A DNA stretch of 64,000 bases from positions 442,480-506,479 of the forward strand of contig CAZAYU010000001.1 in the NCBI GenBank assembly GCA_964489445.1, given 5' to 3'. The stretch comes from an uncultured Planctomycetia bacterium (GTDB lineage Bacteria > Omnitrophota > Gorgyraeia > Duberdicusellales > 4484-171). Of the stretch, positions 44,351-59,879 are shown piece by piece. Within the stretch, counting starts at the first letter, position 1. Each line of letters opens with the position of its first letter. The position numbers and the translations under genes are program-made. The notes under the pieces are model-generated. The model was not told the origin of the DNA. It did no database searches and saw only the letters and a program-made list of their open reading frames with translations.

Positions 44351-44352
44351 AA

Positions 44353-45198: not shown

Positions 45199-45240
45199 TT
45201 GATTATTATTTGATAACAGAATCGTTTCACCATTTTGATT

Positions 45241-47598: not shown

Positions 47599-49299
47599 TT
47601 AAAAATTCCTGTTTAAATAATCACTATCCTTACTATTTAAAACCCAATTAGAAAATTCCTTAAGATCATCAGCTTTTTTTAACTCATTAAGATTACTTAC
47701 AACGGGATATAAATTATGATCCAATGGATGCGTCCCTTTATTCTTATAATTAAACTCTGCCCGGAAACTATTCATTATCCAAGGCCGAAGTATAAATGCG
47801 GTATAAGCATGTTTTTTTGCCCACAAAGTTTGCTTCTCTGTCAACAAAGGAAACTCATGAATATGAGAAAGATTTTTTAGATACTCATCTTTGGAGACAG
47901 AATCTACAGTAAATCCCAATCCAGAATATCTACCAGTTCCTGCAGTAAATACCGGCTTTCCAAAGCAAGGCAACTCCATCCCGGTTGTTCCTCTTACTGT
48001 AATTCCATAATCAACAAAGTTGAATAAAGATAAAGTGCTGATATCGGTATCCGGCAACAATATTTTAACGTGCGAAGATAACTTGCCTATTTTTTCCCGA
48101 ATAACCATAATTTCCCGCAACTCACCAGTTAAATTGTCCCGATTTCGTTTCCAGATATTCGCAGGATGAAGTTTAATAATCCAATTTAAATTTTTATTGC
48201 TGCAAGCTGCCTTCAGTGTTTCCACAAACCAATCTTCATAATCTTGAAATAAATCATCACCATAAAACAGATTAGCATCCCAAAGCACATGTGAAAAAAT
48301 AATCGCTGTTCTTTTATTGGTGTCTAGCTCTAACTTTCCAATTATCTCGTCCTTGCTTTTGTTAACAGCCTCAAGCTGATTTCTCTTGCTTAAAAACCAC
48401 TTTCCCCCGTAACGATTACCAAATTCTTCCTGAAGAAAATCTTCATGCTTCTTCGTCCATTCAATTTCTTTTATGCGGTCAAAAGTAGACTTAGACAATG
48501 AATTAGGGTGAAGCCCTTTGGATTCAGAATTAAACCGCTTAAATATTAGTGAATCATCACGCAATGGCTGAACAAATTGGACAATATCTTTCCTGTGTAA
48601 AAACGATAAATCAAATATCGCACCATAAGCATGATCATTAGCCTCATTAAACAAAACACAGTCCGGATTTATATTTTTTATCATTTTCTCTGCAGCATAT
48701 ATCGACTTTATTTGATTTTTCAAATAATACTCTAACTGATAAGAATCTTGTTTATTTGAAAAATCCGGAGTTCTGTGCATTCTTCTAGCCATACGACTTA
48801 ATACTTGCTGCCCCAACCGACATTGTTTAAATTGCCACCCTTTAACCTTCTGGAAAGTAAGGTTATTTAAGGGAAAATTTCTTAAATCCTTCTTGCAGTC
48901 AAATTTATCAAATTGTTTCAAATAATCTTCAAAATAGATAAAATTATTAATCCCAAAAAGCTTAAAATATTTTCGGGGCCAGAAAAAATGCTTCCAGGTC
49001 AATACAACTATTTCTGCTCCGGCAAGCTGCAAAGCCTTACCCAGCATTGCTTCAGTTTTAACTTGATATAAAAAATGCGTAAGACTAACAATTAATATCT
49101 TTTTGTTGGAATAATCTTGAGTCTTGTTTTTTAGAAAACAAAGACCTTTTTTTGCCCTTTGATAATCAGAGGCTATTTGGAAAAAATGCGCAAGATTTTG
49201 ATGATTACGCAATAAATAAACAAATGGAAATATAGATGCAATTTTTTCGGCTATTTCTATTTTTTTCATTAAAATAGATCTCCTGTCTTTAGCAAACAC
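47599..49299 (-). CDS. Hypothetical GT-B-like protein with an 'HP' motif, either a KpsS/KpsC/LpsZ-like capsule synthesis protein or a candidate sialyltransferase
   Basis: IIKLHPANIW and a downstream GTTGMELPCFGKPVFTAG resemble HP-motif families (Capsule_synth / GT38-52-80 sialyltransferases / TagF-like). It is next to the neuBCA genes. Confidence 0.3.
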   Translation of the reverse strand: MFAKDRRSILMKKIEIAEKIASIFPFVYLLRNHQNLAHFFQIASDYQRAKKGLCFLKNKTQDYSNKKILIVSLTHFLYQVKTEAMLGKALQLAGAEIVVLTWKHFFWPRKYFKLFGINNFIYFEDYLKQFDKFDCKKDLRNFPLNNLTFQKVKGWQFKQCRLGQQVLSRMARRMHRTPDFSNKQDSYQLEYYLKNQIKSIYAAEKMIKNINPDCVLFNEANDHAYGAIFDLSFLHRKDIVQFVQPLRDDSLIFKRFNSESKGLHPNSLSKSTFDRIKEIEWTKKHEDFLQEEFGNRYGGKWFLSKRNQLEAVNKSKDEIIGKLELDTNKRTAIIFSHVLWDANLFYGDDLFQDYEDWFVETLKAACSNKNLNWIIKLHPANIWKRNRDNLTGELREIMVIREKIGKLSSHVKILLPDTDISTLSLFNFVDYGITVRGTTGMELPCFGKPVFTAGTGRYSGLGFTVDSVSKDEYLKNLSHIHEFPLLTEKQTLWAKKHAYTAFILRPWIMNSFRAEFNYKNKGTHPLDHNLYPVVSNLNELKKADDLKEFSNWVLNSKDSDYLNRNF

Positions 49300-50340
49300 T
49301 TACCGCTGACGATTGATTTTTTCTAGCAACAACGTTGCTTGGAGTCCGTCTTCTATCGTTGGGCTATCTTTGCTGATATTTCCTAGAATAGCATTGATAA
49401 ATCGTGAATCTACACGATAAAAAAGCGAAGACATTCTTTTGCTTTCATTTTTATTGGTAATTGATAAAACTTGTGCCTTTGTATTCTCTTGGCAATGTAA
49501 ACTTAAGGTAAAGGGGCCAGCAGAAGAGCCCGGATTAAAATTTTCAACTCGTAATGTTCCTTTACTTCCAAAAGCCGTTAATGAATAGCCTAGAGCCGGC
49601 ATAGTCACATTAGAAAGATGAACAGAAACAACAGTTCCATTAGAAAGCTTAAAAAGAATAGTTGCCACTTCTTCACCCGTAACTTTACGATTCTTTTTCC
49701 CTTCTTTCCTTCGATTAACAAATATCTTTTTATCAACACTCAGTATTTTAGGTGCTGGTGAATCATAGAATAAATAATCAAGTACATGCACACCATAATT
49801 CTGGATAATGCCTCCCCCTAATTCATTTTGGTTTTTCCACCCAAAAGATATCTGATGATTAAGGCGACTGGAAAGAATCCACTCAAGACGAATAAAATGG
49901 ACTACTCCACATTGTTTTTTAGAAATCTGCTTCTTGAATTCCAAAATTTGGGGAATTAAGCGATAACAAAAATTAACCATTCCCACACAATGAGATTTTT
50001 TCCATGCCCTCTGAACTTTTCGGGCATCATTTGAATTTAAACTAAGCGGTTTTTCACATAAAACGTGTTTTTTATTTTTAAAAGCCGAAATCGCTATTGA
50101 AGCTTGAGCAGAAGGAGTAACTGCTATAATCACTGCATCAATTTTTGATGATTCCAACATCTCATCAATAGAACTATAATGTTTAATGCCTGTTTTTTGG
50201 GCAATTAGTGCAGATTTTTTAACATCACAATCAGCAATGCCTGCTATTGCTACCATAGGAATCATGCGCAAAGCTTCAATATGAATCTTACCCGCTGTCC
50301 CGGCTCCAATAATCCCCACCTGTATTTTTCTTTTTCCCAT
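49300..50340 (-). CDS. Gfo/Idh/MocA-family NAD(P)-dependent oxidoreductase
   Basis: The N-terminal Rossmann fold is IQVGIIGAGTAGKIHIEAL, followed by EKPLSLNSNDA. Confidence 0.85.
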   Translation of the reverse strand: MGKRKIQVGIIGAGTAGKIHIEALRMIPMVAIAGIADCDVKKSALIAQKTGIKHYSSIDEMLESSKIDAVIIAVTPSAQASIAISAFKNKKHVLCEKPLSLNSNDARKVQRAWKKSHCVGMVNFCYRLIPQILEFKKQISKKQCGVVHFIRLEWILSSRLNHQISFGWKNQNELGGGIIQNYGVHVLDYLFYDSPAPKILSVDKKIFVNRRKEGKKNRKVTGEEVATILFKLSNGTVVSVHLSNVTMPALGYSLTAFGSKGTLRVENFNPGSSAGPFTLSLHCQENTKAQVLSITNKNESKRMSSLFYRVDSRFINAILGNISKDSPTIEDGLQATLLLEKINRQR

Positions 50341-50358
50341 ATAATTATTTAGTAAGTC

Positions 50359-51621
50359 TTAAAATTTAATTTTTTTAATTTCATCAATTAATAAATCCCC
50401 GGCTACATCAGGAGAGAATGATTTACTATACTCCTCAAATGCATTAGCCGCCACCGAAGATGATAATTGCTTATCTTCATAAACTTTTTTCATGCAACTA
50501 ATAAAATCATTTGCTGTCTTACCTAAAAAGCATGTCTTGTTGTTTACCAAACAAGGATTCCCCAAAGAAGTATTTTTATGTGCAATTACCGGAGCACCTA
50601 AAGACATTGCGGTAACAATTCTACTCCGATTTCCTACTGGAACATCAATCGGAACAATAACTGCATGACACTTGTTTATTAAGCTTACAATATCTTCCAC
50701 AAAGCCCAGATATTTAATTTCCGGCTTATCAATTATTTTCTTCTCTGCCCATTTTGGCAATTTAAGCAAACCGGACAAATATATTTGGAAATTGCCTGCC
50801 CCCCATAACTGTATTAAGCCAAAATACACTTTATCCAAGAAAAAATGTAGTGCTGAACGTGAACCAAGAGCAGATAAATTACCAAAAAACAAGAATGAAG
50901 GCTTTGGGTCTGTCTTCCTGTTTATACAAAATTTATATTCATTTGGCCAAGGATACGGTAAATATAACGAATCAATTTTAAGCCGAGATAATATTGATTC
51001 TGAAGATTTTGAAGAAACTACAACCAAAGAACATCCTGAAAGATTACGTACATAAAATAACTTGCTTAACTGGGATACTATCCAGGCAACAGGTAAAAAA
51101 AACAATTTAATAAAGCTTTCTTTTGTTGCATAAAGCGCATGATACCATAAAGTCTGAAAATTTAAATCACCTAGCCAACAAACTCGCGGGCAAAAAATAT
51201 ATTTTTCTAGCGTAGTGTTAGCAGAGATATCAAAGGAAAAAGATAAATCAGGATTAAACTGATTAATTTTTTTTACAATTTCTCTCGGCAAAACACATAA
51301 AGAAACCCCTAGCTTCTTTTTTAGCTTAGAAATTCTACCAGGGCAGAAACTTAAGACGTGAAACTTGCCTGCTTCTTCAAACTCATCACAATAAACCTTT
51401 AGTCTATCCTTACATTCCTCTTTATCTTCCAAAATCAAGAGATGGATAATATTAAATCCAGAATCTTTTAATTTCTGTATGTAGTAATAGAAAAGAACAA
51501 CACTAGCCCCAAATTTTTTTTGAGGTATTGCACCAAAGCTACAAACGACCAGTCGTTTTCCTTGGATATTATTACCTGCCATATGCTTAGCCAAGTATTT
51601 CAATCTCCAGTAGCGGAACAA
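50359..51621 (-). CDS. GT-B fold glycosyltransferase (divergent GT4-like)
   Basis: The C-terminal region IVPIDVPVGNRSRIVTAMSLGAPVIA resembles the GT4 EX7E region. The protein is 420 aa. Confidence 0.45.
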   Translation of the reverse strand: MFRYWRLKYLAKHMAGNNIQGKRLVVCSFGAIPQKKFGASVVLFYYYIQKLKDSGFNIIHLLILEDKEECKDRLKVYCDEFEEAGKFHVLSFCPGRISKLKKKLGVSLCVLPREIVKKINQFNPDLSFSFDISANTTLEKYIFCPRVCWLGDLNFQTLWYHALYATKESFIKLFFLPVAWIVSQLSKLFYVRNLSGCSLVVVSSKSSESILSRLKIDSLYLPYPWPNEYKFCINRKTDPKPSFLFFGNLSALGSRSALHFFLDKVYFGLIQLWGAGNFQIYLSGLLKLPKWAEKKIIDKPEIKYLGFVEDIVSLINKCHAVIVPIDVPVGNRSRIVTAMSLGAPVIAHKNTSLGNPCLVNNKTCFLGKTANDFISCMKKVYEDKQLSSSVAANAFEEYSKSFSPDVAGDLLIDEIKKIKF

Positions 51622-52846
51622 TTATTTTTGAACGTAGGCCTCGTTCACGTAATTTTTTAATTATTGGCAAGGCATAATGCCATGATAGCATTAAAACATA
51701 ATCCGGCTGCTCTTTTAGCATTAAGGACTCATCTACAACTGGTATATGGGTATTAGGTGTATACATTCCTAATTTTAGGCAAGTTGATTGTTCAGCTATA
51801 TATGGTAATAGATCGCTGGTTACCCCACAATAATGTAATAAAGTAGCAGATCGCCCCGGACAACCGGCCCCGACAACTCTTTTGTTCTCATTGTTAAGCT
51901 GAACCAATAATGATCTAATTTTCTGACATGATTTTTTAACACGTTCAGCAAATTTATCATAAGTAGAATCATCATAGGCTCCGCTTTCGTCTTCAAGTTT
52001 TATAAGCTTACTTACACTTTCTGATACTCGGTGGTTGATGCCTTTTTTAGCATATACCCTGATAGAACCACCATAATTAGGAATACGCTCAACATCAATA
52101 AGCGTAAACCCATGGTCAGTAAAAAATTTAACTAATGGTTTAATAAGATAATAGCGTAAATGTTCGTGATAGATTGAATCATATTGAAGAGTTTTTAAAA
52201 TATCTAGCTGGTAGTGCGATTCGCTGATAAAAATGCCCCCTTCTTCTAATAAATGATTAATACCTTTAGTTAAGCCGGAAAAATCATTCACATGAGCAAA
52301 AACATTAGCAGCAGTTACCAAAGATGCCTTGCCATGAGTATCTGTTATCTTGTGGGCTGTCGGTAACGAAAAAAACTCTTTTAGTGTTTCAATTCCATTA
52401 GCATTAGCAATGTCGGCAATATCTGTTGCCTCCACACCAAGCACTCTCATTCCCATGTTTTTAAAGCCTTCAAGAATAGTTCCATCGTTAGATCCAACAT
52501 CAACAACAAAAGAATTTTTTGGTAAACCAAGCTTATCAACCATATGAGAGGAAATTCCGTGTAAATTATTTCTTAGTGTTTCAGTAATGCCACTACGATA
52601 AGGATACTCGGGGTAAAATAATTCTCTCGTATCAACTGCGTAATCTATCTGCACTAATCCACAGTCACGACACCTCACCAAATTAAGCGGATAGCTTTTC
52701 TCTGGCTTTTTTAACATATCTTTAGTAAGGAGTGAATCACAAGGAGCAAAAAAACCCATATTAATTACTTGTTGAAGATTTTTTGAACTGCAGATCTGAC
52801 AATAATCTATATGCCCAAGCGGTATATCTTCTTTCTCTTTATTCAT
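51587..52846 (-). CDS. Sugar C-methyltransferase-family SAM enzyme with a Zn-ribbon N-domain, a class I methyltransferase core and a C-methyltransferase C-terminal domain (TylCIII/NovU-like architecture)
   Basis: N-terminal CQICSS...CRDCGLVQ, a methyltransferase core VVDVGSNDG and the hallmark DSIYHEHLRYY. The protein is 419 aa. Confidence 0.65.
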   Translation of the reverse strand: MNKEKEDIPLGHIDYCQICSSKNLQQVINMGFFAPCDSLLTKDMLKKPEKSYPLNLVRCRDCGLVQIDYAVDTRELFYPEYPYRSGITETLRNNLHGISSHMVDKLGLPKNSFVVDVGSNDGTILEGFKNMGMRVLGVEATDIADIANANGIETLKEFFSLPTAHKITDTHGKASLVTAANVFAHVNDFSGLTKGINHLLEEGGIFISESHYQLDILKTLQYDSIYHEHLRYYLIKPLVKFFTDHGFTLIDVERIPNYGGSIRVYAKKGINHRVSESVSKLIKLEDESGAYDDSTYDKFAERVKKSCQKIRSLLVQLNNENKRVVGAGCPGRSATLLHYCGVTSDLLPYIAEQSTCLKLGMYTPNTHIPVVDESLMLKEQPDYVLMLSWHYALPIIKKLRERGLRSKIIVPLLEIEILG

Positions 52847-53574
52847 AGCTCCTCCTTAACATAACCGGTAAATATAAATGCCTTCGCCTCATTTGTTTCG
52901 ATAAATTTCTCAAATCTAAGTTCCGGATTTTTATTACAAAATTCAGCAAAAGCTCTTCGTTCTCCTTTTTCTGGGTCAGCACAAAAACAATTCCAATCAT
53001 CAAAAACAATAATTGTTCCTTTCTGTAAGAAATCTTTAATAAAACCTAAAACCGGAACTGTCGATGCATACAGATCACAATCAATATAAATAACTGCTGC
53101 TTTTTTCGGTAATAACCTTTGCTTTAACTCTGGGGTTAGTGAAACATCGTAAAACCCCTTAACGGTATTTAGCCTATTCTTGGGAATTCCATGTTTTCTG
53201 GCAATCCGAATAAAATCATTCTCAGAAGTCTTTAATTTTCCTTTTTCCCAAATCTTTTGTTTGTCTATATCACTTATCTCCGGTAATCCTTCAAAAGAAT
53301 CAAAAGCAATATACGTCCAATCAAACAAGTGTCGAAAACAATTGTATGCCTGGCGAATGGTATTTGCTTCATGGCAACCAAACTCAAAATAATACCCTTC
53401 AATCGGACGATTAATATGGCAAAACCTAGCTATACTTAAAAAAATATACTTACGCTGGTCTTGTCCAAATCTAAAATATTCTTTTCTAATCCATCTATAT
53501 CTTTTAGAGACATAGCTTAAAAGAAAGCGCGCTACACGCTTATTTTTTTCTGATAATCTAAATAATTGCTTCAT
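52843..53574 (-). CDS. TylF/MycF-family (macrocin O-methyltransferase-like) SAM-dependent sugar O-methyltransferase
   Basis: FEFGCHEANT..DSFEGLP..IDCDLYASTVPVLGFIKDFLQKGTIIVFDDW matches the PF05711 pattern. Confidence 0.65.
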   Translation of the reverse strand: MKQLFRLSEKNKRVARFLLSYVSKRYRWIRKEYFRFGQDQRKYIFLSIARFCHINRPIEGYYFEFGCHEANTIRQAYNCFRHLFDWTYIAFDSFEGLPEISDIDKQKIWEKGKLKTSENDFIRIARKHGIPKNRLNTVKGFYDVSLTPELKQRLLPKKAAVIYIDCDLYASTVPVLGFIKDFLQKGTIIVFDDWNCFCADPEKGERRAFAEFCNKNPELRFEKFIETNEAKAFIFTGYVKEEL

Positions 53575-54269
53575 TTTTCTAAAATATACTTAGCAAAGTT
53601 AAAATCAAACTCATCATCAATATCAATGCTTTCCTGTTTTTTCATAACATAAGCTAAAATTTTTTCTCCGTAAGTGCTATTCTTAACGCAAAGACATTCA
53701 TTAGTAAATGCTAACACCGCCGGACCATTACGTCCATAAAATAAAGGCTTTTTTTGACGAATATTATTCGTTTCATTAAATTTTAGAAAAGGCTTTAGGT
53801 GCTTACCTTCGAGCTGCATTACTGAATAAGGATTAAAACTATGCGGGACATCAACTACACTAACAACCGAATCCGCCCCTGAAGCCATCAATGCCTCTAG
53901 CGCTTCATCAATGTGTTGAGTGGTCCTAAAAGGAGAAGTTGGTTGAAGTAATATTATTAAATCAGGAACATATTTTTCTTTTTCTTTTAAAAACAAAGCT
54001 GCGTGCTTTATTACCGCCAACATCGATGTGTCATCCTCAGCTAAATTTTGCGGCCGGATAAACGGTACATCTACTTTTTGCTTTTGACAATAAGTCATGA
54101 TTTCCTGATCATCACTGGAAAGAATAAGTCTGGTAATTAGTTTGCTGTTTACTGCAGCATTAATTGTGTATTGGATTAATGGAATTCCGCCTAAAAAAGA
54201 GATATTTTTTCTTGGAACACCCTTTGAATTGCCCCGAGCAGGAATTATTCCTAAAATTTCTTTTCCCAT
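53571..54269 (-). CDS. neuA: Acylneuraminate cytidylyltransferase (CMP-sialic acid / nonulosonic acid synthetase)
   Basis: GIIPARGNSKGVPRKN, the CMP-NeuAc/CMP-Kdo synthetase signature, in a 232-aa protein. Confidence 0.8.
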   Translation of the reverse strand: MGKEILGIIPARGNSKGVPRKNISFLGGIPLIQYTINAAVNSKLITRLILSSDDQEIMTYCQKQKVDVPFIRPQNLAEDDTSMLAVIKHAALFLKEKEKYVPDLIILLQPTSPFRTTQHIDEALEALMASGADSVVSVVDVPHSFNPYSVMQLEGKHLKPFLKFNETNNIRQKKPLFYGRNGPAVLAFTNECLCVKNSTYGEKILAYVMKKQESIDIDDEFDFNFAKYILEK

Positions 54270-54273
54270 AAAA

Positions 54274-55464
54274 TTAATAATTAAGCTTTTTCTGCAGTGA
54301 GACAGCTGTTAAATCTAACTCGGAGATAATTTTTGCAATTTTTTCCCCGGCACCTCCGTCACCATAAATATAATCTGGTTCGTATTTACCAACTTTAAGC
54401 TGTTTTTTGATCGCACAGATAATTTCATCTTTGTTATACCCAACATCAAACACATTACTTCCTCTTGCTCTTCCCTGCTGCCGACTGCCGATATTAACAG
54501 CTCCAACTCCAATAATCGCGCCCTCCCGAATTGCACTACTAGAATTACCAACAACACAAGCACAAATATCCATCAATTTTATATATACTTCTACCGGAAG
54601 ATTTTTGAAAAGATGTAACCATTGATCAGGCTTATACCTTTCACGAAATGTTCTGATCTCTTTGGATATTTCATCTGAGCCGGCATCAGCATTAGGCCAA
54701 AGCAAAATCGTAGGCATTCCAAGCTCAAGTAGAGCCATTAAAGTTTCCTTCATATGTTTGCGATTATTCCCATACTCAGTTGTTACCGGATGTTGAGACA
54801 CAAGCAAAAACTTTTCCTTATTTAAATCAAATCTTCCACCGATTCCTTTATATTTAGGCCAAAAACTTTCCTGATCTACGCCTTCACCCTTTCGATTTTC
54901 ATCGATAAGTTTTCTAACTAAATCTATTCTCGGGCAACCAGTAACAAACACATTTTTCGGATTTTCACCCATTTTAATAATTCTTTCTGCTGCTTTCTTG
55001 TTAGCTGCAAAATGAATATGTGAAAATTTCGTAACCGCATGCCGAATACTTTCATCAATGGTTCCAGAAACCTCACCTCCCATCGTATGGGCAAGATGAA
55101 TATTCATATAGGTAGCAGTCGAAGCTGTAGCCAAAGTTTCAAAACGATCACCAACAGTAATAACTATATCCGGCCGATGATTCATGAATATTCCGGATAA
55201 TTCAATCATTCCTAAACCAGTAGACATAGCCATAGTCTGAGGATTCTCTCCTTCCACTAGAATATAAAACTTCTCGGTAATTCGAAAACCATCACTTTCT
55301 ATCAAATCAACAACACGCCCGTATCTATCCAGTAAAGCTGAAGCTCCCACAAAAACTAAAAGTTCAAGGGTATCGTTGCGTTTTATAATTTCCTGCATTA
55401 CAGATTTTATGCTAGCGTAATTAGCCCGGCTACCGACAACTACTCCTACTTTTATTTTTTTCAT
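54274..55464 (-). CDS. neuC: UDP-N-acetylglucosamine 2-epimerase (hydrolysing), NeuC family
   Basis: A 396-aa protein with VGSRANYASIKSV, HRPDIVITVGDRFETLA and HTMGGEVSG motifs of NeuC-type epimerases. Confidence 0.8.
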   Translation of the reverse strand: MKKIKVGVVVGSRANYASIKSVMQEIIKRNDTLELLVFVGASALLDRYGRVVDLIESDGFRITEKFYILVEGENPQTMAMSTGLGMIELSGIFMNHRPDIVITVGDRFETLATASTATYMNIHLAHTMGGEVSGTIDESIRHAVTKFSHIHFAANKKAAERIIKMGENPKNVFVTGCPRIDLVRKLIDENRKGEGVDQESFWPKYKGIGGRFDLNKEKFLLVSQHPVTTEYGNNRKHMKETLMALLELGMPTILLWPNADAGSDEISKEIRTFRERYKPDQWLHLFKNLPVEVYIKLMDICACVVGNSSSAIREGAIIGVGAVNIGSRQQGRARGSNVFDVGYNKDEIICAIKKQLKVGKYEPDYIYGDGGAGEKIAKIISELDLTAVSLQKKLNY

Positions 55465-56480
55465 TCTTCTAGCATCTCCTCTTGTATTTTTATATTCACA
55501 TCAATATCCATCTTGACTTTACGACTCAGTAAATCCTTATATTTGTCAGCTCTTATTCCATCTCCAGGCTTTTTAAATGCCAGCATATTAGCGCTTAGCA
55601 CTGAACCACTTTTAATTTGCTGATTAGATACAATACTTTTTTCAAAAATAACTTTCATACTCTGAAGCTTTTTGGCCAACATATCCTTGTCTACGTCATT
55701 AGCCAACGCTAACTCTAAGCTTCTGATTTCTTTAATAAAATCAGCCAACCTTGAAGGAACTAAAGAATGCTCAGAATCAGAACCAGCAATATCTTTTTCT
55801 AAGGTAAAATGCCTCTCAATAACCTCTGCCCCTAAAACAACTGCAGCTATTGAAGCAGTGTTGTCTAATGTATGATCAGAAAAACCCACAGCAAGACCAA
55901 ATCTTTTTTTCATTTCAGACAAAACGTTTAAACCTACTTCTTGCATCGGACAAGGGTAAACCGATGAACACTGTAAAATCGTAATATCCCGGCAGCCTCC
56001 TGCTCTTAGCGTTTGAACCGCATTTTCCAATTCCTTCCAGCTACTCATCCCTGAAGAAAGTAATACTGGCTTACCCAAAGAAGATACTTTTTCTAATAAT
56101 GATAAATTAGTTACTTCTCCTGAAGGTATCTTATGCTTTTTAATGGCAATATTTTCCAGTAAATCAACAGCTTCATTAGAAAACACTGACGCCATAAACT
56201 CTATTTTACATTCTTTTTCTGCATAATTTTTTAGTATTTTCCACTGCTCGACATCAAAAGACGTCCTTTCGAAATATTGTTTGCGGCTTTCCGATTTAAA
56301 ATAAGGCGGATTAGGAGCTTCCGGCAAGCTTTCAGCATCAAAAATATGCACCTGAAATTTTACGGCATCTGCCCCACAAGAAGCAGCCTGAGCAATGAAT
56401 TCTTTTGCCAAATCTAAAGAACCATCATGAAGATTTCCTACTTCAGCAATAATAAAGGTTTTCTTTTTCCTGTTATTCAA
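55461..56480 (-). CDS. neuB: N-acetylneuraminate (nonulosonic acid) synthase
   Basis: FIIAEVGNLHDGSLDLAKEFI begins the NeuB TIM barrel, followed by a C-terminal SAF domain, in 339 aa. Confidence 0.85.
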   Translation of the reverse strand: MNNRKKKTFIIAEVGNLHDGSLDLAKEFIAQAASCGADAVKFQVHIFDAESLPEAPNPPYFKSESRKQYFERTSFDVEQWKILKNYAEKECKIEFMASVFSNEAVDLLENIAIKKHKIPSGEVTNLSLLEKVSSLGKPVLLSSGMSSWKELENAVQTLRAGGCRDITILQCSSVYPCPMQEVGLNVLSEMKKRFGLAVGFSDHTLDNTASIAAVVLGAEVIERHFTLEKDIAGSDSEHSLVPSRLADFIKEIRSLELALANDVDKDMLAKKLQSMKVIFEKSIVSNQQIKSGSVLSANMLAFKKPGDGIRADKYKDLLSRKVKMDIDVNIKIQEEMLEE

Positions 56481-56497: not shown

Positions 56498-57910
56498 TCA
56501 ACGATAATGCTTCTTTAAAGCCCCTCTTATGATACCTTTCAAATCAAAACACCAAAATGCAATAATAGCCAACCCTGTAAAAATAGCACACTTAAAACTA
56601 AAGGGCAATAAATAAATCTTAAAAGTAATCAGTCCAATAAGTACCACTAAAGAGACCCAAAAAGATATTCTCTCAAATGAAATACACCCCAATTTTATTG
56701 CATAAATTCTTCTGACTAAACGAGTACTAAAAAAATAAAGAATAATAGAAATTGCGGCTCCAACCATCCCAAAAACCCTTACAAATAAAATAGTTAACCC
56801 GCAAAATAATAACCCAGGAATTACTTCACTAAAAAAAACAATCTTATTCTTTTTTTTAGCTAAAAGATACTGCAAATAAGGAACACCAAAAAAATAAACC
56901 ATAATCAATATAAACCATAACGACACTATTGGAGCAGCCGAAATGAATTTACCATGAGTTAAAATACCAATAACTTCCGGAGAAAATAAGCATACCGCCA
57001 CACCAGCTATCCCTAAAAATCCAGTCCAATTATTAAATATTTCTTTCATTTTTATCATCTTTTGCCTATCACCAACAGAAGCAGCTTCAACGATTTCTGG
57101 TGAATAAGAATTAGAAAAAGCCTTAAACACCATTAAAAACATCCGGCGATAGTATAAAGAATGGCTATAAATACCTAAGCTAGCTAGCCCCGACCACCTC
57201 TCAATAAACAATCTCCCTAAAGAATTAGGAATAATTTCCAAAATGTTAACCGGAATCGTTGGAAGTCCTCTTTTTATTATTTCTTTTATCCATTTTATCT
57301 TAATTGAAAAGATACTATATTTACGAATATAAAATACCGAAAACAAAAACCCTCCGAAAGCTGCACCTAAATACATCAACACTAACGAAATCGTCTTAAG
57401 ATCAAACACCAATAAAGCTATTAATAAAACAGACAGCCGACTAACAATTTGAATAATTTCATACGCAGCATAAGCTTGACCTTTCTTTTGTAGAACAATA
57501 ACATAGGAAACAATTTCTCCCACTGAATTAAACCACTCAGCAATTAAGAACAACCAAAGAAATAGCAAAAACTCACCTTGATAAGAACTAACCCAAAGCG
57601 GAAGAAACCAAAAACCAGAAATACCGATAACCAGCACCCAAAATGCACGAAGCAATATCCCAAAAATAATAATCGTAGATATTAATTCTTTTCTTTCTTC
57701 TGGACTAACTTTATAATAATTTCCGGCTAACACCCAAAACACTCCGGTTGAAGAAAGGGGTACTATCAACCCAGAAAAAACAGTAATAATCCCCACAATA
57801 CCAAAATCTTCAGGATTTAAGTAATAGGTAGAGACCGGAATAATCACAAACAACCCAACAATTCCGGTTAAAACAGAAGGAGAAAGATAATAAAAAAAAT
57901 TCTTTCTCAT
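56498..57910 (-). CDS. Polysaccharide flippase (Wzx-like, MOP superfamily)
   Basis: A 470-aa protein with about 12-14 TM segments and a Wzx-like N-terminus. Confidence 0.6.
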   Translation of the reverse strand: MRKNFFYYLSPSVLTGIVGLFVIIPVSTYYLNPEDFGIVGIITVFSGLIVPLSSTGVFWVLAGNYYKVSPEERKELISTIIIFGILLRAFWVLVIGISGFWFLPLWVSSYQGEFLLFLWLFLIAEWFNSVGEIVSYVIVLQKKGQAYAAYEIIQIVSRLSVLLIALLVFDLKTISLVLMYLGAAFGGFLFSVFYIRKYSIFSIKIKWIKEIIKRGLPTIPVNILEIIPNSLGRLFIERWSGLASLGIYSHSLYYRRMFLMVFKAFSNSYSPEIVEAASVGDRQKMIKMKEIFNNWTGFLGIAGVAVCLFSPEVIGILTHGKFISAAPIVSLWFILIMVYFFGVPYLQYLLAKKKNKIVFFSEVIPGLLFCGLTILFVRVFGMVGAAISIILYFFSTRLVRRIYAIKLGCISFERISFWVSLVVLIGLITFKIYLLPFSFKCAIFTGLAIIAFWCFDLKGIIRGALKKHYR

Positions 57911-57917
57911 TATTGGC

Positions 57918-58631
57918 TTATTTTACCGCCTCAACATAAAGAGTCTCAATTTCTCGTTCGGCAAGTTCAATCTTATCAATATCAGGAATCTGGCTATCTA
58001 GTCTCTTCTTTTTTTTGACTTGGCTAAAACCGCTGATTTCTAATATATGCTTTAATGACTCAAAATCATAAAACCATTCATGTGTTCTTCCACAATCATA
58101 AGCTTTAGCCATGAATATTTCTCCGGGAGTAGCTGCTTTATCGTAAACACAAAACTTTTTAATCAAAGGATTTTCAAAGAAATTACGATTATTGTTTGCA
58201 TAATTTTCTGCATACAAACGAAGATTTGGACAGCTAATCCAAATTATTCCCCCTTGCTTCATAACCCGAAAAGCTTCTTGAAAAAAAATAATACTTTTAT
58301 TTAAATCTAAATGCTCAATAAAATGGCTCCCGGCAATAGACTGGATAGATTCTGCTGCAAACGGCCATTTTTTAATTAAATTAAAATTCAAAACTAGAAT
58401 ATCATTTATTTTTTTTACCCGGCCATACTCTTCATATTTCTCATTTTTTATATTCAACCAACCGCTTATCAAATTCTTCCCGCAACCTACATGAAGCTTG
58501 TCGACATTTAGATTAAGAATGCTTTTCGCTAAAAAATATTTATTAATACGAGTATACCGAAGCAATAGGTAAGAAAAAATAAGCCTTAGCGCCCCTTTAA
58601 ATTTAAAAAATATTTTTTCGCACTTACTCAA
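57918..58631 (-). CDS. Class I SAM-dependent methyltransferase (Methyltransf_11-like)
   Basis: Motif I is LHVGCGKN and post-motif-I is GGIIWISCPN, in a 237-aa protein. Confidence 0.6.
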   Translation of the reverse strand: MSKCEKIFFKFKGALRLIFSYLLLRYTRINKYFLAKSILNLNVDKLHVGCGKNLISGWLNIKNEKYEEYGRVKKINDILVLNFNLIKKWPFAAESIQSIAGSHFIEHLDLNKSIIFFQEAFRVMKQGGIIWISCPNLRLYAENYANNNRNFFENPLIKKFCVYDKAATPGEIFMAKAYDCGRTHEWFYDFESLKHILEISGFSQVKKKKRLDSQIPDIDKIELAEREIETLYVEAVK

Positions 58632-59879
58632 TTATTCCCCTTCCTTCTGCAAATCTGTACAAGATACAAATATAGCAACAAAAGAAATAAGCAACCAGAA
58701 TAAAATTGATAGCTTAAGCGAATAAAGCTGAGTATCAAAAAACATTTGGACACAAAATGCTGATGAAGCAGAAATTGTCCCTAACAATAAAATATCAAAT
58801 TTTTTAATTATCATTTTTATACTTCTTCCAAATACTAACCCCAGAAACCATAAAAAAGAAACAAACCCTAAAAGACCGGTTTCAGCTAAAATTTGCAGAT
58901 AACAATTGTGTGCATATAGCGGTTGTAATCCATAATCAGTTATATGATTCATAAACAATCCTAAGCCCCGTCCATTCAAAGGATAATCTTTAAACATTAA
59001 AACTGCCCCTTTCCATATCCCAAATCTTCCTCCGTCGGCTCTTTCAATCAGCTCCAATATATTTTCTCTCAAGAATGGAATACTTATTCCAGCTACTAGA
59101 CAAATTAATAAAAAAAACAAAAATCCAAATTTTATTCTTCTACCTGGAAATAAAAAAGCAAACACTATTAGCCCGATAGATAATGAAAGCAGGCCAGCCC
59201 GAGAATTTACTAAAAAAATATTAATCACCAACAATAAAAATAAAACATACACGCCAAATCTTACCCAAGATTTTTTTATTCTCAGTAGCACCGAGCAGCT
59301 TAACAAAAATATTACTGATAAGTAAGTAGAAAAATTATTGAAGTGGCTGAAACTAGCAGTTACCCCTAAAAAATCATTTGCTCCTTTTAGTTCAAAACCT
59401 CTTAAAAAATCTATTCCTACTATATATTGATAAATACCATCAACAGATACTAAAAAAGCTGAAGCTAAGAAAACATAAATTAAATATTTTACTTTTTGTT
59501 TATTTAAAAATATTTGAGCAAGATAAAAAAGAGCTACTCCCTCTCCCCACTTTGAAACCCAGGCTCTTAAACTTTTCCCTAAAAGATCACCACTGGAAAA
59601 AAAAGAAAATCCAATACATAAATAAAAAATTAATAGCGCCAAATTTACCCTATTGTTAAAAAAGGCTCTTATATCCTTGCCTGATGGTCTTTCAATGGCA
59701 AACCGGATAAGAAAGCAAAGAAGTATAAATCCAAAACAAGTTTCAATCGTTGCGCCGGATATCGGAAGAAAAAAAACCAAAACCCCAAAAAAGAAAACCG
59801 CCGCTTTATTGACTATACTTATAATTTTATCTTTCAATTTATGCACCCTTTTTTTCTCTTCGTCCTTTCCTCTCATCAT
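58632..59879 (-). CDS. O-antigen ligase / polymerase-like membrane protein (Wzy_C family)
   Basis: A 415-aa multi-TM protein with a periplasmic loop between TM segments, typical of the WaaL/Wzy family. Confidence 0.5.
   Translation of the reverse strand: MMRGKDEEKKRVHKLKDKIISIVNKAAVFFFGVLVFFLPISGATIETCFGFILLCFLIRFAIERPSGKDIRAFFNNRVNLALLIFYLCIGFSFFSSGDLLGKSLRAWVSKWGEGVALFYLAQIFLNKQKVKYLIYVFLASAFLVSVDGIYQYIVGIDFLRGFELKGANDFLGVTASFSHFNNFSTYLSVIFLLSCSVLLRIKKSWVRFGVYVLFLLLVINIFLVNSRAGLLSLSIGLIVFAFLFPGRRIKFGFLFFLLICLVAGISIPFLRENILELIERADGGRFGIWKGAVLMFKDYPLNGRGLGLFMNHITDYGLQPLYAHNCYLQILAETGLLGFVSFLWFLGLVFGRSIKMIIKKFDILLLGTISASSAFCVQMFFDTQLYSLKLSILFWLLISFVAIFVSCTDLQKEGE

What the first reader, a model, noticed from the sequence alone, without database searches (positions are those of the whole stretch)
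49300..56480. Sialic acid (neuB-neuC-neuA) module with TylF-like and C-methyltransferase-family enzymes and a Gfo/Idh/MocA oxidoreductase
NeuC (hydrolysing 2-epimerase), NeuB and NeuA together define synthesis of a CMP-activated nonulosonic acid. Between them and the glycosyltransferases lie a TylF/MycF-type sugar O-methyltransferase and a protein with the Zn-ribbon + methyltransferase + C-methyltransferase C-terminal-domain architecture of deoxysugar 3-C-methyltransferases. Further along are a Gfo/Idh/MocA oxidoreductase and a third class I methyltransferase (57918-58631). This suggests a methylated or otherwise modified nonulosonic acid or a branched sugar on the surface glycan. That would be unusual in an apparently free-living AT-rich lineage, and the chemistry cannot be predicted from sequence alone.
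Basis: partly seen in the sequence, partly recalled or inferred. Interest (0 to 1): 0.6.

Follow-up and report, generated by a model that had tools for sequence, protein, structure and literature searches.

The report
Sialic-acid-type locus with C-methyl-sugar cassette
An uncultivated bacterium's surface-polysaccharide operon combines genes for a sialic-acid-like sugar with a four-gene cassette for a rare carbon-methylated sugar, and this cassette is almost always found next to sialic-acid-type genes in many other environmental bacteria, a link I found no paper describing.

Summary
On the minus strand lie neuB, neuC, neuA, a TylF-like O-methyltransferase, a full-length MtmC/TylC3-type sugar C-methyltransferase (38.9% identical to MtmC, catalytic and zinc residues kept), a divergent GT4-like glycosyltransferase and a Gfo/Idh/MocA oxidoreductase. 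All sit in one Wzx/Wzy polysaccharide operon.

The C-methyltransferase, oxidoreductase and GT4-like gene form a contiguous triad in 42 of 82 related loci. Among 48 loci with full flanks, 26 of 27 with the GT4-like gene carry neuB, against 3 of 21 without it. The triad joins three different NulO pathway types.

The reverse does not hold. An Omnitrophota relative has the closest NulO module (NeuC 73%) but no triad. Its slot holds a galactofuranose-type cassette instead.

The cassette therefore most likely makes and transfers a second, C-methyl-branched and O-methylated sugar placed beside the NulO (confidence 0.55). The donor nucleotide sugar is unknown.

The more novel reading is a C-methylated, ten-carbon ulosonic acid, as reported without assigned genes in Magnetospirillum. 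It remains possible (about 0.2).

NulO genes in free-living bacteria are not unusual.

The parts
61435..62493 (-). Extended SDR resembling CDP-tyvelose 2-epimerase; first gene of the operon. It is not a 4,6-dehydratase, and its catalytic Tyr is replaced by Phe.
   Evidence: Best PDB hits are CDP-tyvelose 2-epimerases (9rl0 1e-38, 1orr 2e-32). RmlB, GalE and LegB models all score far below their cut-offs. The motifs 'STNKVYG' and 'HSLFGASK' are conserved in the orthologs of L009 and L054.
60027..61427 (-). Initiating polyprenyl-phosphate hexose-1-phosphate transferase (WbaP/WcaJ type)
   Evidence: Bac_transf 226 bits plus CoA_binding_3. TIGR03025 429 bits, above its cut-off of 296.
58632..59879 (-). 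Wzy_C-family polymerase or ligase
   Evidence: PF04932 68.8 bits.
57918..58631 (-). 237-aa protein, borderline class I methyltransferase
   Evidence: Methyltransf_11 21.3 bits against a cut-off of 21.2; Methyltransf_23 18.9 bits. Homologs were found only in copies of the same contig.
56498..57910 (-). Wzx-type flippase
   Evidence: Polysacc_synt_3 28.4 bits. Homologs at 23-53% identity lie in the same position in related loci.
55461..56480 (-). NeuB, NulO synthase (group 1 of the triad-linked NeuBs)
   Evidence: PF03102 247 bits. TIGR03569 335.9 bits (below its cut-off of 399.65) but above PseI at 239 bits. Best PDB hit is N. meningitidis NeuB (169 bits), ahead of PseI (137) and SpsE (135). 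It is 41-51% identical to the NeuBs that sit with NeuC, NeuA and mostly P566 and 62% identical to the Omnitrophota L091 NeuB.
54274..55464 (-). NeuC, hydrolysing UDP-HexNAc 2-epimerase
   Evidence: TIGR03568 375.4 bits, above its cut-off of 235.9; wecB model only 65 bits.
53571..54269 (-). NeuA-type CMP-NulO synthetase
   Evidence: CTP_transf_3 92 bits. The best equivalog model is PseF at 130.7 bits, below its cut-off of 205.7.
52843..53574 (-). TylF/CalS11-family O-methyltransferase; first gene of the four-gene cassette
   Evidence: PF05711 33.2 bits against a cut-off of 23, covering profile positions 125-232. CalS11 matches at 2e-5 over the metal-binding stretch. Orthologs at 57-71% identity lie in more than 20 related loci.
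51587..52846 (-). Sugar C-methyltransferase of the TylC3/MtmC/TcaB9 family
   Evidence: Three-domain Pfam architecture. MtmC 4rv9 matches at 2e-87 and 297 bits over residues 14-398, with 38.9% identity. The Zn cysteines C16, C19, C59 and C62 are invariant. So are H185, Y226, E228 and H229, which align with TcaB9 H181, Y222, E224 and H225. The TcaB9 residue numbers come from my memory of the published structure papers.
50359..51582 (-). Divergent GT4-like glycosyltransferase ('GT14'); probable transferase of the cassette's sugar
   Evidence: Glyco_trans_1_4 38.9 bits. A family profile hits only GT4 enzymes in the PDB (TarM 3e-7, PglA 3e-6). The EX7E glutamates are replaced by a conserved 'VPVGNRSRI.TA' motif. 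The gene is contiguous with the C-MT and Gfo in 42 of 82 loci.
49300..50340 (-). Gfo/Idh/MocA sugar oxidoreductase; invariant partner of the C-MT
   Evidence: PF01408 98 bits plus the C-terminal domains. The sequence carries the 'CEKPLSL' motif. Weak similarity to UDP-GlcNAc 3-dehydrogenase (77 bits), to NanY/YjhC and to the KijD10 3-ketoreductase. A Gfo homolog accompanies every neuB-carrying locus (29 of 29 full-flank loci), and in group A the gene lies next to the C-MT (gene strings).
47599..49269 (-). 556-aa KpsC/KpsS-like GT-B protein ('P566'); candidate CMP-NulO transferase
   Evidence: Capsule_synth 24.6 bits against a cut-off of 20. A family profile hits only KpsC in the PDB. Invariant H368-P369. 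AF2 model with pLDDT 89.2. In Foldseek the best TM-scores are to KpsC beta-Kdo transferases (0.50-0.52). The gene follows NeuA or NeuC in the loci that carry it.
41443..47378 (-). Remaining glycosyltransferases of the operon: GT4+WecG fusion (45291-47378), GT2 (44353-45198), GT9 (43388-44350), ArnC-like GT2 (42687-43391) and GT87 (41443-42684)
   Evidence: Pfam and NCBIfam.

Best explanation
The region is the core of a roughly 21-kb Wzx/Wzy-dependent surface-polysaccharide operon transcribed on one strand. The host is an uncultivated bacterium, probably related to Omnitrophota. The core holds two sugar cassettes, each with its own transferase.

(1) NeuC, NeuB and NeuA make a CMP-activated nonulosonic acid (NulO). 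It is most likely of the Neu5Ac type, but a legionaminic type is not excluded. The KpsC/KpsS-like protein at 47599-49269 installs it.

(2) A mobile four-gene cassette makes and installs a second sugar that is C-methyl-branched and O-methylated.
- Inferred: the Gfo/Idh/MocA enzyme supplies and/or removes the keto group that the C-methyltransferase needs.
- Inferred from homology and conserved catalytic residues: the MtmC/TylC3-type enzyme methylates the neighbouring carbon of a nucleotide-activated keto-sugar with SAM.
- Inferred from family: the TylF-like enzyme O-methylates a hydroxyl.
- Inferred from gene linkage: the divergent GT4-like enzyme transfers the product.

The cassette is almost never seen without NulO genes, whereas NulO modules do occur without it. 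The branched sugar is therefore probably the direct neighbour (acceptor or substituent) of the NulO in a conserved glycan motif.

Shown: gene content, family membership, conserved residues, cassette contiguity, linkage to NulO genes, cassette mobility and cassette replacement. Not shown: the identity of the donor nucleotide sugar, the carbon that is methylated, and the glycan structure.
For: Family assignments.

Linkage of the cassette to NulO genes:
- Homologs of the C-MT at 50-85% identity lie in the same gene set in many lineages.
- The gene strings show a contiguous GT4-like / C-MT / Gfo triad in two gene orders.
- The triad is present in 42 of 82 non-redundant loci, and 31 of those carry neuB in the DNA fetched. 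Ten of the other eleven are short or truncated contigs.
- Among 48 loci with at least 7 kb on both sides of the C-MT, 26 of the 27 with the GT4-like gene carry neuB. Only 3 of the 21 without it do (Fisher p = 3e-9, not corrected for phylogeny).
- The triad is joined to three different NeuB groups. A C-MT 81% identical to ours sits with a NeuB only 32% identical.

Evidence that the cassette makes a separate sugar:
- More distant C-MTs (41-49% identical, mostly without the GT4-like gene) sit in classical NDP-sugar routes. One is CDP-glucose 4,6-dehydratase > Gfo-like > C-MT > GT2 > nucleotidyltransferase. Another is UGDH > SDR > C-MT followed by Gfo, an aldo-keto reductase or an aminotransferase. 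In these the oxidoreductase position looks like post-methylation handling of the keto group.
- The profile of the GT4-like protein matches only NDP-sugar GT4 enzymes.
- P566 is KpsC-like by Pfam, conserved motif and fold, so the NulO already has its own transferase.
- Reverse test: Omnitrophota locus L091 has the closest NulO module (NeuB 62%, NeuC 73%, NeuA 59%, P566 58% identical) but no C-MT, Gfo or GT14. The slot between NeuA and P566 holds Methyltransf_24 + UDP-galactopyranose mutase + another GT.
- L092 and L093 also lack the triad.
- L095 carries the same four genes in the same internal order, but upstream of wzx.

Precedent: 3-C-methyl-D-mannose, a non-deoxy C-methyl hexose, occurs in a Helicobacter pylori O-antigen (cited in PMC9912281).
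Against: - Neither the cassette nor the window encodes a 4,6-dehydratase or a hexose-1-phosphate nucleotidyltransferase for the C-MT. The only SDR in the operon is epimerase-like and lacks the catalytic Tyr. The substrate source is therefore unexplained.
- Across the triad loci with C-MT at least 50% identical to ours, no dehydratase is consistently adjacent. The frequent Gmd genes pair with the fucose synthase Fcl.
- The GT4-like protein lacks the EX7E glutamates typical of GT4, and its structure could not be modelled. Its donor is thus not established.
- The near-obligate dependence on NulO genes is equally expected if the cassette modified the NulO itself.
- Ten-carbon, CH2-laddered CMP-ulosonic acids with no assigned genes are reported in Magnetospirillum gryphiswaldense. 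A Magnetospirillum strain carries the triad inside a NulO locus.
Confidence: 0.55

Rival explanations
1. The cassette modifies the NulO itself. Gfo oxidises a hydroxyl of the NulO, of CMP-NulO or of a HexNAc-level precursor. The C-MT methylates the adjacent carbon and the keto group is reduced again. The result is a C-methyl-branched, ten-carbon ulosonic acid, which is further O-methylated by the TylF-like enzyme.
For: - The triad is almost never found without NulO genes, and no dehydratase or hexose nucleotidyltransferase travels with it.
- Gfo/Idh/MocA enzymes that oxidise C4 of sialic acid exist. NanY/YjhC 6o15 is among the PDB hits at 2.6e-11. Its mechanism is from my memory of the literature.
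- CMP-activated ulosonic acids with a C10 marker fragment (m/z 311.10, the C9 marker plus CH2) are reported for M. gryphiswaldense. So are a CH2 ladder (m/z 679, 693, 707) and CMP-linked species of 203 and 217 Da. No genes were assigned (bioRxiv 10.64898/2026.04.20.719630 and PMC8157484).
- Magnetospirillum sp. 15-1 carries GT14, C-MT and Gfo inside a NulO locus rich in methyltransferases.
Against: - The closest NulO module (NeuC 73%, NeuB 62% identical) works without the cassette. It has a galactofuranose-type cassette in the same slot. This argues against methylation upstream of NeuC and NeuB.
- Nearly identical cassettes (C-MT 81%) serve NeuBs only 32% identical.
- The cassette always brings a GT4-like transferase although a KpsC-like NulO transferase is already present.
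- Distant relatives of the C-MT sit in ordinary CDP-sugar or UDP-sugar routes.
- M. gryphiswaldense itself was not shown to carry the cassette. It gave no named hit and is absent from the top 80 genome loci.
Confidence: 0.2
2. The NulO made here is not Neu5Ac but a legionaminic-acid-type sugar. The precursor would be UDP-2-acetamido-4-acylamino-2,4,6-trideoxyglucose made by the PglF/PglE/PglD-like genes just upstream. NeuC would act as LegG, NeuB as LegI and NeuA as LegF. This concerns the identity of the NulO and is compatible with either reading of the cassette.
For: - The contig continues beyond the window. There it encodes a PglF-like 4,6-dehydratase (616 aa), a DegT aminotransferase, a PglD-like acyltransferase, a FabH-like enzyme and a 3-hydroxyacyl-CoA dehydrogenase, 8-13 kb upstream of neuB.
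- NeuB misses the Neu5Ac-synthase equivalog cut-off (335.9 against 399.65), and NeuA scores best with the PseF model.
Against: - The upstream set has its own small PglC-like transferase, GT4 and Wzy. It is separated from the neu operon by an AbiE toxin-antitoxin pair, so it looks like a separate bacillosamine-type locus.
- Orthologous NeuB-NeuC-NeuA-P566 modules elsewhere have no adjacent dehydratase, aminotransferase or acetyltransferase.
- NeuB is closer to N. meningitidis NeuB (169 bits) than to B. subtilis SpsE (135 bits). That SpsE is a legionaminic acid synthase is from my memory of the literature.
Confidence: 0.3
3. The cassette and the NulO genes are neighbours only because both lie in polysaccharide loci. 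There is no functional link, and the window is an ordinary O-antigen or EPS locus with two unrelated sugars.
For: - Polysaccharide loci are mosaics.
- NulO modules occur with other cassettes.
- The loci compared are not phylogenetically independent.
Against: - 26 of 27 full-flank loci with the GT4-like gene carry neuB, against 3 of 21 without it.
- The carriers span Nitrospirota, Alpha-, Beta-, Gamma- and Deltaproteobacteria, Verrucomicrobia, Spirochaetes, Bacteroidota, Chloroflexi, Actinobacteria, Lentisphaerae and Elusimicrobia. They carry three different NulO modules and several gene orders.
Confidence: 0.1

Closest known systems
neuBCA CMP-Neu5Ac pathway of capsule loci (E. coli K1, Neisseria meningitidis)
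   Same: It has a hydrolysing 2-epimerase, a PEP-condensing synthase and a CMP-synthetase, adjacent and co-transcribed. NeuC passes the equivalog cut-off, and NeuB is closest to N. meningitidis NeuB among solved structures.
   Different: NeuB and NeuA miss their equivalog cut-offs. The locus is Wzx/Wzy-type, not ABC-transporter (kps) type. No GT38, GT52 or GT80 sialyltransferase is present; a KpsC-like protein takes that place. No neuD or neuS was found.
TylC3 / MtmC / TcaB9 / KijD1 NDP-hexose 3-C-methyltransferases of antibiotic deoxysugar pathways
   Same: Same three-domain architecture and zinc site, aligned catalytic Tyr, Glu and His residues, and 38.9% identity to MtmC over 383 residues.
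   Different: No TDP-glucose synthase, 4,6-dehydratase or 2,3-dehydratase accompanies it. Its fixed partners are a Gfo/Idh/MocA oxidoreductase and a GT4-like transferase. It sits in a primary cell-surface glycan locus tied to NulO genes rather than in a secondary-metabolite cluster.
KpsC/KpsS beta-Kdo transferases (Capsule_synth, PF05159). From memory, the KpsS1 pseudaminic acid transferase of Acinetobacter baumannii KL2 belongs to the same family.
   Same: GT-B fold with the best TM-scores to KpsC. It has a conserved His-Pro motif, a 'T.RGT.G.E ... GRY.G.GFT.D' stretch that aligns with KpsC, and a position directly after the CMP-sugar synthetase gene.
   Different: Only 12-16% identical to KpsC. 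It has about 230 extra residues, and its Pfam score is barely above the cut-off. The donor would be a nine-carbon rather than an eight-carbon ulosonic acid. This was not tested.
3-C-methyl-D-mannose of a Helicobacter pylori O-antigen (Kocharova et al. 2000, as cited in PMC9912281)
   Same: It is a C-methyl-branched sugar in a bacterial surface polysaccharide. Being non-deoxy, it would need oxidation, C-methylation and reduction rather than a 4,6-dehydratase. This matches the Gfo + C-MT pairing.
   Different: As far as I know its biosynthetic genes have not been described. No link to NulO is reported, and the sugar made here is unknown.
CMP-activated 'higher-carbon' (C10) ulosonic acids of Magnetospirillum gryphiswaldense (PMC8157484; bioRxiv 10.64898/2026.04.20.719630)
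   Same: It is a NulO-type sugar with one extra carbon and a CH2 ladder. A Magnetospirillum strain carries the C-MT triad inside a NulO locus.
   Different: No genes have been assigned to that sugar. M. gryphiswaldense was not shown to carry the cassette. The comparative evidence here points to a separate sugar.

Membership tests
NulO (sialic acid) synthase NeuB | NeuB TIM-barrel domain (PF03102) | tested here: met
   247 bits against a cut-off of 22. DAHP-synthase models score at most 29 bits.
NulO (sialic acid) synthase NeuB | Score above the N-acetylneuraminate synthase equivalog cut-off (TIGR03569) | tested here: not met
   335.9 bits against 399.65. PseI scores 239.4 against 340.25. It is a NulO synthase, but its exact product is not assigned.
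NulO (sialic acid) synthase NeuB | C-terminal SAF/antifreeze-like domain | tested here: inconclusive
   PF08666 scores 20.3 bits against a cut-off of 21.
Hydrolysing UDP-GlcNAc 2-epimerase NeuC/LegG | Score above the TIGR03568 cut-off and well above the non-hydrolysing WecB model | tested here: met
   375.4 bits against a cut-off of 235.9; wecB 65 bits.
CMP-NulO synthetase (NeuA/LegF/PseF) | CTP_transf_3 domain, adjacent to the synthase gene | tested here: met
   92 bits. Its stop codon overlaps the start of the TylF-like gene by 4 bases.
CMP-NulO synthetase (NeuA/LegF/PseF) | Equivalog-level assignment to one NulO type | tested here: not met
   The best model is PseF at 130.7 bits, below its cut-off of 205.7.
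NDP-hexose 3-C-methyltransferase (TylC3/MtmC/TcaB9) | Zn-ribbon + class I SAM domain + C-terminal Methyltransf_14 domain | tested here: met
   PF08421 67 bits, PF13489 45 bits and PF08484 139 bits. Four invariant cysteines.
NDP-hexose 3-C-methyltransferase (TylC3/MtmC/TcaB9) | Catalytic His/Tyr/Glu/His set of TcaB9 (H181, Y222, E224, H225; residue numbers from memory) | tested here: met
   H185, Y226, E228 and H229 align with these residues and are invariant in 12 homologs.
NDP-hexose 3-C-methyltransferase (TylC3/MtmC/TcaB9) | An NDP-4-keto-6-deoxyhexose supply (nucleotidyltransferase + 4,6-dehydratase) in the same cluster | tested here: not met
   Neither is in the window operon and neither is consistently near the triad. 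A PglF-like dehydratase lies in the neighbouring locus.
NDP-hexose 3-C-methyltransferase (TylC3/MtmC/TcaB9) | C-methylation of a nucleotide-linked keto-sugar | not testable with these tools
   This needs an enzyme assay.
TylF/MycF/CalS11 sugar O-methyltransferase | TylF domain above the Pfam cut-off | tested here: met
   33.2 bits against a cut-off of 23, but only profile positions 125-232 of 264 are matched.
TylF/MycF/CalS11 sugar O-methyltransferase | Similarity to solved members across the whole fold | tested here: inconclusive
   CalS11 matches at 2e-5 over 36 residues only; MycF at E 0.3.
Gfo/Idh/MocA oxidoreductase | N-terminal Rossmann domain with the EKP motif plus the C-terminal alpha/beta domain | tested here: met
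   PF01408 98 bits, PF22725 39 bits and PF02894 34 bits. 'CEKPLSL' is present in the sequence. No equivalog cut-off is reached.
KpsC/KpsS-like CMP-ulosonate glycosyltransferase (PF05159) | Capsule_synth domain | tested here: met
   24.6 bits against a cut-off of 20, so weak. PF05159 is also precomputed for some homologs.
KpsC/KpsS-like CMP-ulosonate glycosyltransferase (PF05159) | GT-B fold closest to KpsC, with a conserved His-Pro motif | tested here: met
   AF2 pLDDT 89.2. KpsC entries give the highest TM-scores, 0.50-0.52. H368-P369 are invariant in 36 sequences. The role of the HP motif is from memory.
KpsC/KpsS-like CMP-ulosonate glycosyltransferase (PF05159) | Uses a CMP-ulosonic acid donor | not testable with these tools
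   Inferred only from the family and from its position after neuA.
GT4 retaining glycosyltransferase | C-terminal GT-B Rossmann domain similar to GT4 members | tested here: met
   Profile A2 hits TarM, PglA, BshA and others at 3e-7 to 1e-3.
GT4 retaining glycosyltransferase | EX7E motif | tested here: not met
   No invariant Glu. The region reads 'VPVGNRSRI.TA' with invariant R321. I therefore call it GT4-like, not GT4.

The most novel reading that the evidence does not exclude
The conserved C-MT/Gfo pair C-methylates the nonulosonic acid itself (or its CMP-activated or HexNAc-level precursor). That would make the unexplained ten-carbon, CH2-laddered CMP-ulosonic acids reported in Magnetospirillum. 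Such 'decaulosonic' sugars would then be made by Nitrospira, SAR11, Omnitrophota and many other environmental bacteria.
Probability: 0.2. Interest if true: 0.85.

Novelty: new variant of a known kind. Interest (0 to 1): 0.55.

Why it matters
C-methyl-branched sugars are regarded as rare in bacterial glycans (PMC9912281), and sugar C-methyltransferases are known almost only from antibiotic pathways. Here a highly conserved subfamily (50-85% identical across phyla, thousands of metagenomic homologs) sits in primary cell-surface glycan loci. It has a fixed oxidoreductase and transferase partner and is tied almost obligately to sialic-acid-type sugar synthesis. Carriers include abundant or ecologically important groups such as Nitrospira, SAR11 and polyphosphate-accumulator relatives.

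If the main reading is right, a NulO plus C-methyl-sugar motif is a widespread and so far unseen feature of environmental cell surfaces. It would matter for phage and grazer recognition and for EPS chemistry. The Gfo + C-MT pair would also be a new dehydratase-independent route to branched sugars.

If the rival reading is right, these are the missing genes for the ten-carbon ulosonic acids. Either way the cassette is small, several cultured carriers exist, and the question can be tested directly.

Tried and rejected
- Gmd as the source of the C-MT substrate. GDP-mannose 4,6-dehydratase is present in 15 of the 49 loci whose C-MT is at least 50% identical to ours. It pairs with the GDP-L-fucose synthase Fcl (493 bits), is not adjacent to the C-MT, and is absent from the window. 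Rejected as a general explanation.
- The operon's SDR (61435-62493) as the dehydratase. It is like CDP-tyvelose 2-epimerase, has 'STNK' instead of the dehydratase Asp/Glu, and has Phe in place of the catalytic Tyr. Rejected.
- C-methylation upstream of NeuC/NeuB, as a Leg-like route with C-MT + Gfo replacing the aminotransferase and acetyltransferase. It is attractive for the loci with a LegB-like SDR. It is disfavoured for this window because a 73%-identical NeuC and a 62%-identical NeuB work without the cassette.
- Structure of the GT4-like protein. The single-sequence AF2 model was unusable (pLDDT 36).
- Whether M. gryphiswaldense carries the cassette. No named hit was found among the 120 best homologs of a Magnetospirillum C-MT or among cluster members. 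Unresolved.
- Promoter and terminator scan of 45000-63000. It found no more sites than in shuffled sequence.
- Literature. No paper in the library combines 'C-methyltransferase' with nonulosonic, pseudaminic, legionaminic or neuB terms in a relevant way. The Leptospira and Vibrionaceae NulO-cluster papers do not mention such genes.
- Rfam and tRNA scans of the window. They found only one tRNA-Met, far from the locus.

Full report
**1. What is in the window**

The window is 32-37% G+C, and almost all genes are on the minus strand. It matches part of a 390-kb contig from an ENA metagenome assembly.

Positions 1-40000 hold housekeeping genes: arginine and lysine biosynthesis, PNPase, FtsK, RodZ, MiaB-like, UvrD and xseA.

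From 62493 down to 41443 runs one uninterrupted co-directional gene string:
- a TyvE-like SDR
- a WbaP/WcaJ-type initiating transferase (TIGR03025, 429 bits)
- a Wzy_C protein
- a borderline methyltransferase
- a Wzx-like flippase
- NeuB, NeuC and NeuA
- a TylF-like O-methyltransferase
- the C-methyltransferase (C-MT)
- a Glyco_trans_1_4 glycosyltransferase
- a Gfo/Idh/MocA oxidoreductase
- a 556-aa protein with a weak Capsule_synth hit
- a GT4+WecG fusion, a GT2, a GT9, an ArnC-like GT2 and a GT87

From neuB to the Gfo gene, starts and stops overlap by 4 bases or lie at most 18 bases apart. This is a Wzx/Wzy-dependent heteropolysaccharide operon.

**2. The individual enzymes**

- NeuB is a nonulosonic acid (NulO) synthase: PF03102 at 247 bits, TIGR03569 at 336 bits, PseI at 239 bits and DAHP-synthase models at 29 bits. 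Its closest solved relative is N. meningitidis NeuB. It misses the Neu5Ac-synthase equivalog cut-off.
- NeuC passes the cut-off for the hydrolysing epimerase (375 bits against 236).
- NeuA is a CTP_transf_3 enzyme with no equivalog-level assignment.
- The C-MT aligns over its full length with MtmC (D-mycarose 3-C-methyltransferase; 2e-87; 38.9% identity over 383 positions) and with KijD1 and TcaB9.
- It keeps the four zinc cysteines and the His/Tyr/Glu/His set that aligns with the TcaB9 active site. All of these are invariant in 12 homologs.
- The TylF-like protein passes the Pfam cut-off but matches only the C-terminal half of the family profile.
- Gfo is a generic family member. It has weak similarity to UDP-GlcNAc 3-dehydrogenase, to the sialic-acid oxidoreductase NanY/YjhC and to the KijD10 3-ketoreductase.

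**3. The cassette is conserved and tied to NulO genes**

Homologs of the C-MT are numerous and highly conserved. The 120 best are 55-100% identical, and named sources include Pacebacteria, Methylomirabilis, Nitrospirae and Proteobacteria. The first three neighbourhoods I fetched already showed the same gene set.

A scan of one genome per species returned 80 loci. I compared them with the window proteins by tblastn. I also clustered all their ORFs, using my own ORF caller, blastp and Louvain communities.

Loci whose C-MT is at least 50% identical to ours carry a contiguous triad. It appears as GT4-like > C-MT > Gfo or as C-MT > Gfo > GT4-like. A TylF-type or Methyltransf_24-type O-methyltransferase is often next to it.

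- The triad occurs in 42 of 82 non-redundant loci, and 31 of these carry neuB within the DNA fetched.
- Ten of the other eleven are short or truncated contigs.
- Among 48 loci with at least 7 kb on both sides of the C-MT, 26 of the 27 with the GT4-like gene have neuB. Only 3 of the 21 without it do (Fisher p = 3e-9, not corrected for relatedness).
- Carriers include Ca. Nitrospira defluvii, SAR11 single-cell genomes, Ca. Propionivibrio, Azonexus, Sulfuritalea, Afifella sp. IM 167, Roseospira navarrensis and Magnetospirillum. They also include Verrucomicrobia, Spirochaetaceae, Flammeovirgaceae, Anaerolineales, Lentisphaerae, an actinobacterium and Elusimicrobia.

The triad is joined to three different NulO modules:
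- (A) NeuB-NeuC-NeuA-P566, as in this window.
- (B) A cytidylyltransferase with Gfo, DegT, an SDR, a GNAT, NeuB and AsnB.
- (C) The Nitrospira type: NeuA, NeuB, NeuC and a LegB-like SDR, together with AsnB, a heparinase-like protein, APS kinase and a sulfotransferase.

A C-MT 81% identical to ours (L005) sits with a NeuB only 32% identical to ours. The cassette therefore recombines independently of the NulO type.

**4. What the cassette most likely does**

More distant C-MTs (41-49% identical) mostly lack the GT4-like gene and NulO genes, and they sit in classical nucleotide-sugar routes. One is CDP-glucose 4,6-dehydratase (TIGR02622, 437 bits) > Gfo-like > C-MT > GT2 > nucleotidyltransferase. 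The other is UDP-sugar dehydrogenase > SDR > C-MT, followed by Gfo, an aldo-keto reductase, or an acetyltransferase plus aminotransferase. In these routes the enzyme after the C-MT disposes of the keto group, and a dedicated glycosyltransferase follows.

The GT4-like protein of the triad matches only NDP-sugar-dependent GT4 enzymes in a profile search of the PDB. It lacks the EX7E glutamates.

The NulO already has a plausible transferase of its own, the 556-aa protein.
- It has a Capsule_synth hit.
- Its only PDB profile hit is KpsC, across a conserved motif.
- It has an invariant His-Pro.
- Its AlphaFold model is confident (pLDDT 89.2).
- The best TM-scores of that model are to KpsC beta-Kdo transferases (0.50-0.52).
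- It follows neuA or neuC in most type-A loci. It also occurs in Magnetospirillum sp. 15-1 and in a type-C Nitrospira locus.

The decisive comparison is the reverse one: what surrounds homologs of the 556-aa protein?
- The Omnitrophota locus L091 has the closest NulO module found. It is identical to ours at 62% (NeuB), 73% (NeuC), 59% (NeuA) and 58% (P566).
- L091 has no C-MT, no Gfo and no detectable ortholog of the GT4-like protein.
- Between neuA and the KpsC-like gene it carries a Methyltransf_24 O-methyltransferase, a UDP-galactopyranose mutase and a different GT.
- Two further NulO/P566 loci also lack the triad.
- Locus L095 has the same four genes in the same internal order, but placed upstream of wzx.

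The four genes therefore behave as a self-contained, movable cassette in a variable slot of a NulO locus. They are interchangeable with a cassette that plainly serves a second sugar, galactofuranose. My preferred explanation is thus that the cassette makes and transfers a second, C-methyl-branched and O-methylated sugar that neighbours the NulO in the repeat unit (confidence 0.55).

The one-way dependence fits a transferase whose acceptor, or whose product's next substituent, is the NulO. The triad needs NulO genes, but NulO genes do not need the triad.

**5. What remains unexplained**

No 4,6-dehydratase and no hexose-1-phosphate nucleotidyltransferase travel with the triad.
- The frequent Gmd genes pair with the fucose synthase Fcl.
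- The only SDR of this operon is epimerase-like and has Phe in place of the catalytic Tyr.

The simplest inference is that Gfo itself creates the keto group on a common nucleotide sugar and later reduces it. That would be a dehydratase-independent route to a non-deoxy C-methyl sugar. 3-C-methyl-D-mannose in a Helicobacter pylori O-antigen is a structural precedent. This step is inferred, not shown.

**6. The rival reading**

Two papers report CMP-activated ulosonic acids in Magnetospirillum gryphiswaldense. They have a ten-carbon marker fragment and a CH2 ladder, and no genes have been assigned (PMC8157484; bioRxiv 10.64898/2026.04.20.719630).

A C-methyltransferase bound to NulO loci is an obvious candidate. 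Magnetospirillum sp. 15-1 carries the triad inside a NulO locus full of methyltransferases.

I could not show that M. gryphiswaldense carries it. The cassette-swap evidence also argues against methylation upstream of NeuC and NeuB. Modification of the finished CMP-NulO is not excluded. I give this reading 0.2.

**7. Identity of the NulO**

Neu5Ac is the simplest product of NeuC/NeuB/NeuA alone, and related type-A modules have no dehydratase, aminotransferase or acetyltransferase nearby.

Just beyond the window end, however, the contig encodes a PglF-like dehydratase, a DegT aminotransferase and a PglD-like acyltransferase. It also encodes a FabH-like enzyme and a 3-hydroxyacyl-CoA dehydrogenase. 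These have their own small PglC-like transferase and their own Wzy, and an AbiE toxin-antitoxin pair separates them from the neu operon. They could feed a legionaminic-type NulO. I leave this at 0.3.

**8. Comparison with what is known, and novelty**

The separate parts are members or near-members of known families, as set out in the membership table. The new element is the combination.
- A TylC3/MtmC-type C-methyltransferase has a fixed Gfo/Idh/MocA partner and a fixed GT4-like partner.
- It sits in primary surface-glycan loci.
- It is almost obligately linked to NulO synthesis across many phyla.

I found no paper that describes this. I rate it a new variant of a known kind.

NulO genes and this cassette are common in environmental bacteria.

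**9. Host**

The nearest named homologs of the KpsC-like protein and of the NulO module come from Candidatus Omnitrophota MAGs. The nearest named C-MT comes from an Elusimicrobia MAG. The host assignment rests only on these best hits.

Noticed in passing
window 62664-64000 (continues to about 64047 on the contig; L090 9391-10774): An AbiEii toxin gene (PF08843, 59 bits) overlaps a 205-aa upstream partner. This looks like an AbiE-type toxin-antitoxin pair. It sits exactly between two polysaccharide loci, each with its own Wzy and its own initiating transferase.
   Followed up: partly
L090 143-9201 (contig beyond the window end, about 8-17 kb upstream of neuB): A second glycan locus holds a GT4, a small PglC-like transferase, a FabH-like enzyme, a 3-hydroxyacyl-CoA dehydrogenase, a PglD-like acyltransferase, DegT, a PglF-like 4,6-dehydratase and a Wzy. 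It suggests a bacillosamine-type sugar carrying an N-(3-hydroxyacyl) group.
   Followed up: partly
window 61435-62493: The TyvE-like extended SDR has Phe where the catalytic Tyr of YxxxK should be ('HSLFGASK'), with a conserved His two residues upstream. The same holds in its orthologs in an Elusimicrobia locus and a SAR11 locus, whereas paralogs keep the Tyr. The enzyme may be non-canonical or inactive.
   Followed up: partly
window 39032-40006: A 324-aa protein combines a RhuM virulence-family domain and a Fic/DOC domain. It lies directly downstream of xseA at the edge of the glycan operon.
   Followed up: no
window 41443-43391: An ArnC-like GT2 (a polyprenyl-phosphate sugar synthase type) pairs with a GT87 membrane glycosyltransferase. 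This suggests periplasmic decoration of the glycan from a lipid-linked sugar.
   Followed up: no
window 45291-47378: A 695-aa fusion of a GT4 domain and a WecG/TagA/CpsF domain, that is, two glycosyltransferases in one protein.
   Followed up: no
L039-L047 (Nitrospira loci), L005, L007, L026, L075: Some triad-linked NulO modules consist of NeuA, NeuB, NeuC and a LegB-like SDR, often with an AsnB-like amidotransferase in the locus and no aminotransferase nearby. That gene content would fit a 9-deoxy, 7-hydroxy, 5-acetimidoyl NulO of the fusaminic-acid type. Sulfotransferase genes (plus APS kinase in the Nitrospira loci) in several of these loci suggest a sulfated glycan.
   Followed up: no
L089 (Magnetospirillum sp. 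15-1), L014, L024, L027, L028: The type-B modules carry a second cytidylyltransferase next to a second Gfo and a DegT. The SugarBase preprint reports CMP-linked species of 203 and 217 Da without a keto acid in M. gryphiswaldense. CMP- or CDP-linked HexNAc intermediates may be involved.
   Followed up: no
window 20080-21957: A 625-aa protein joins a cyclic-nucleotide-binding domain to a patatin-like phospholipase domain.
   Followed up: no
window 1-64000: Strong strand bias. Nearly all genes are on the minus strand, and GC skew is about -0.2 throughout with no switch. The whole window therefore lies on one replichore.
   Followed up: no
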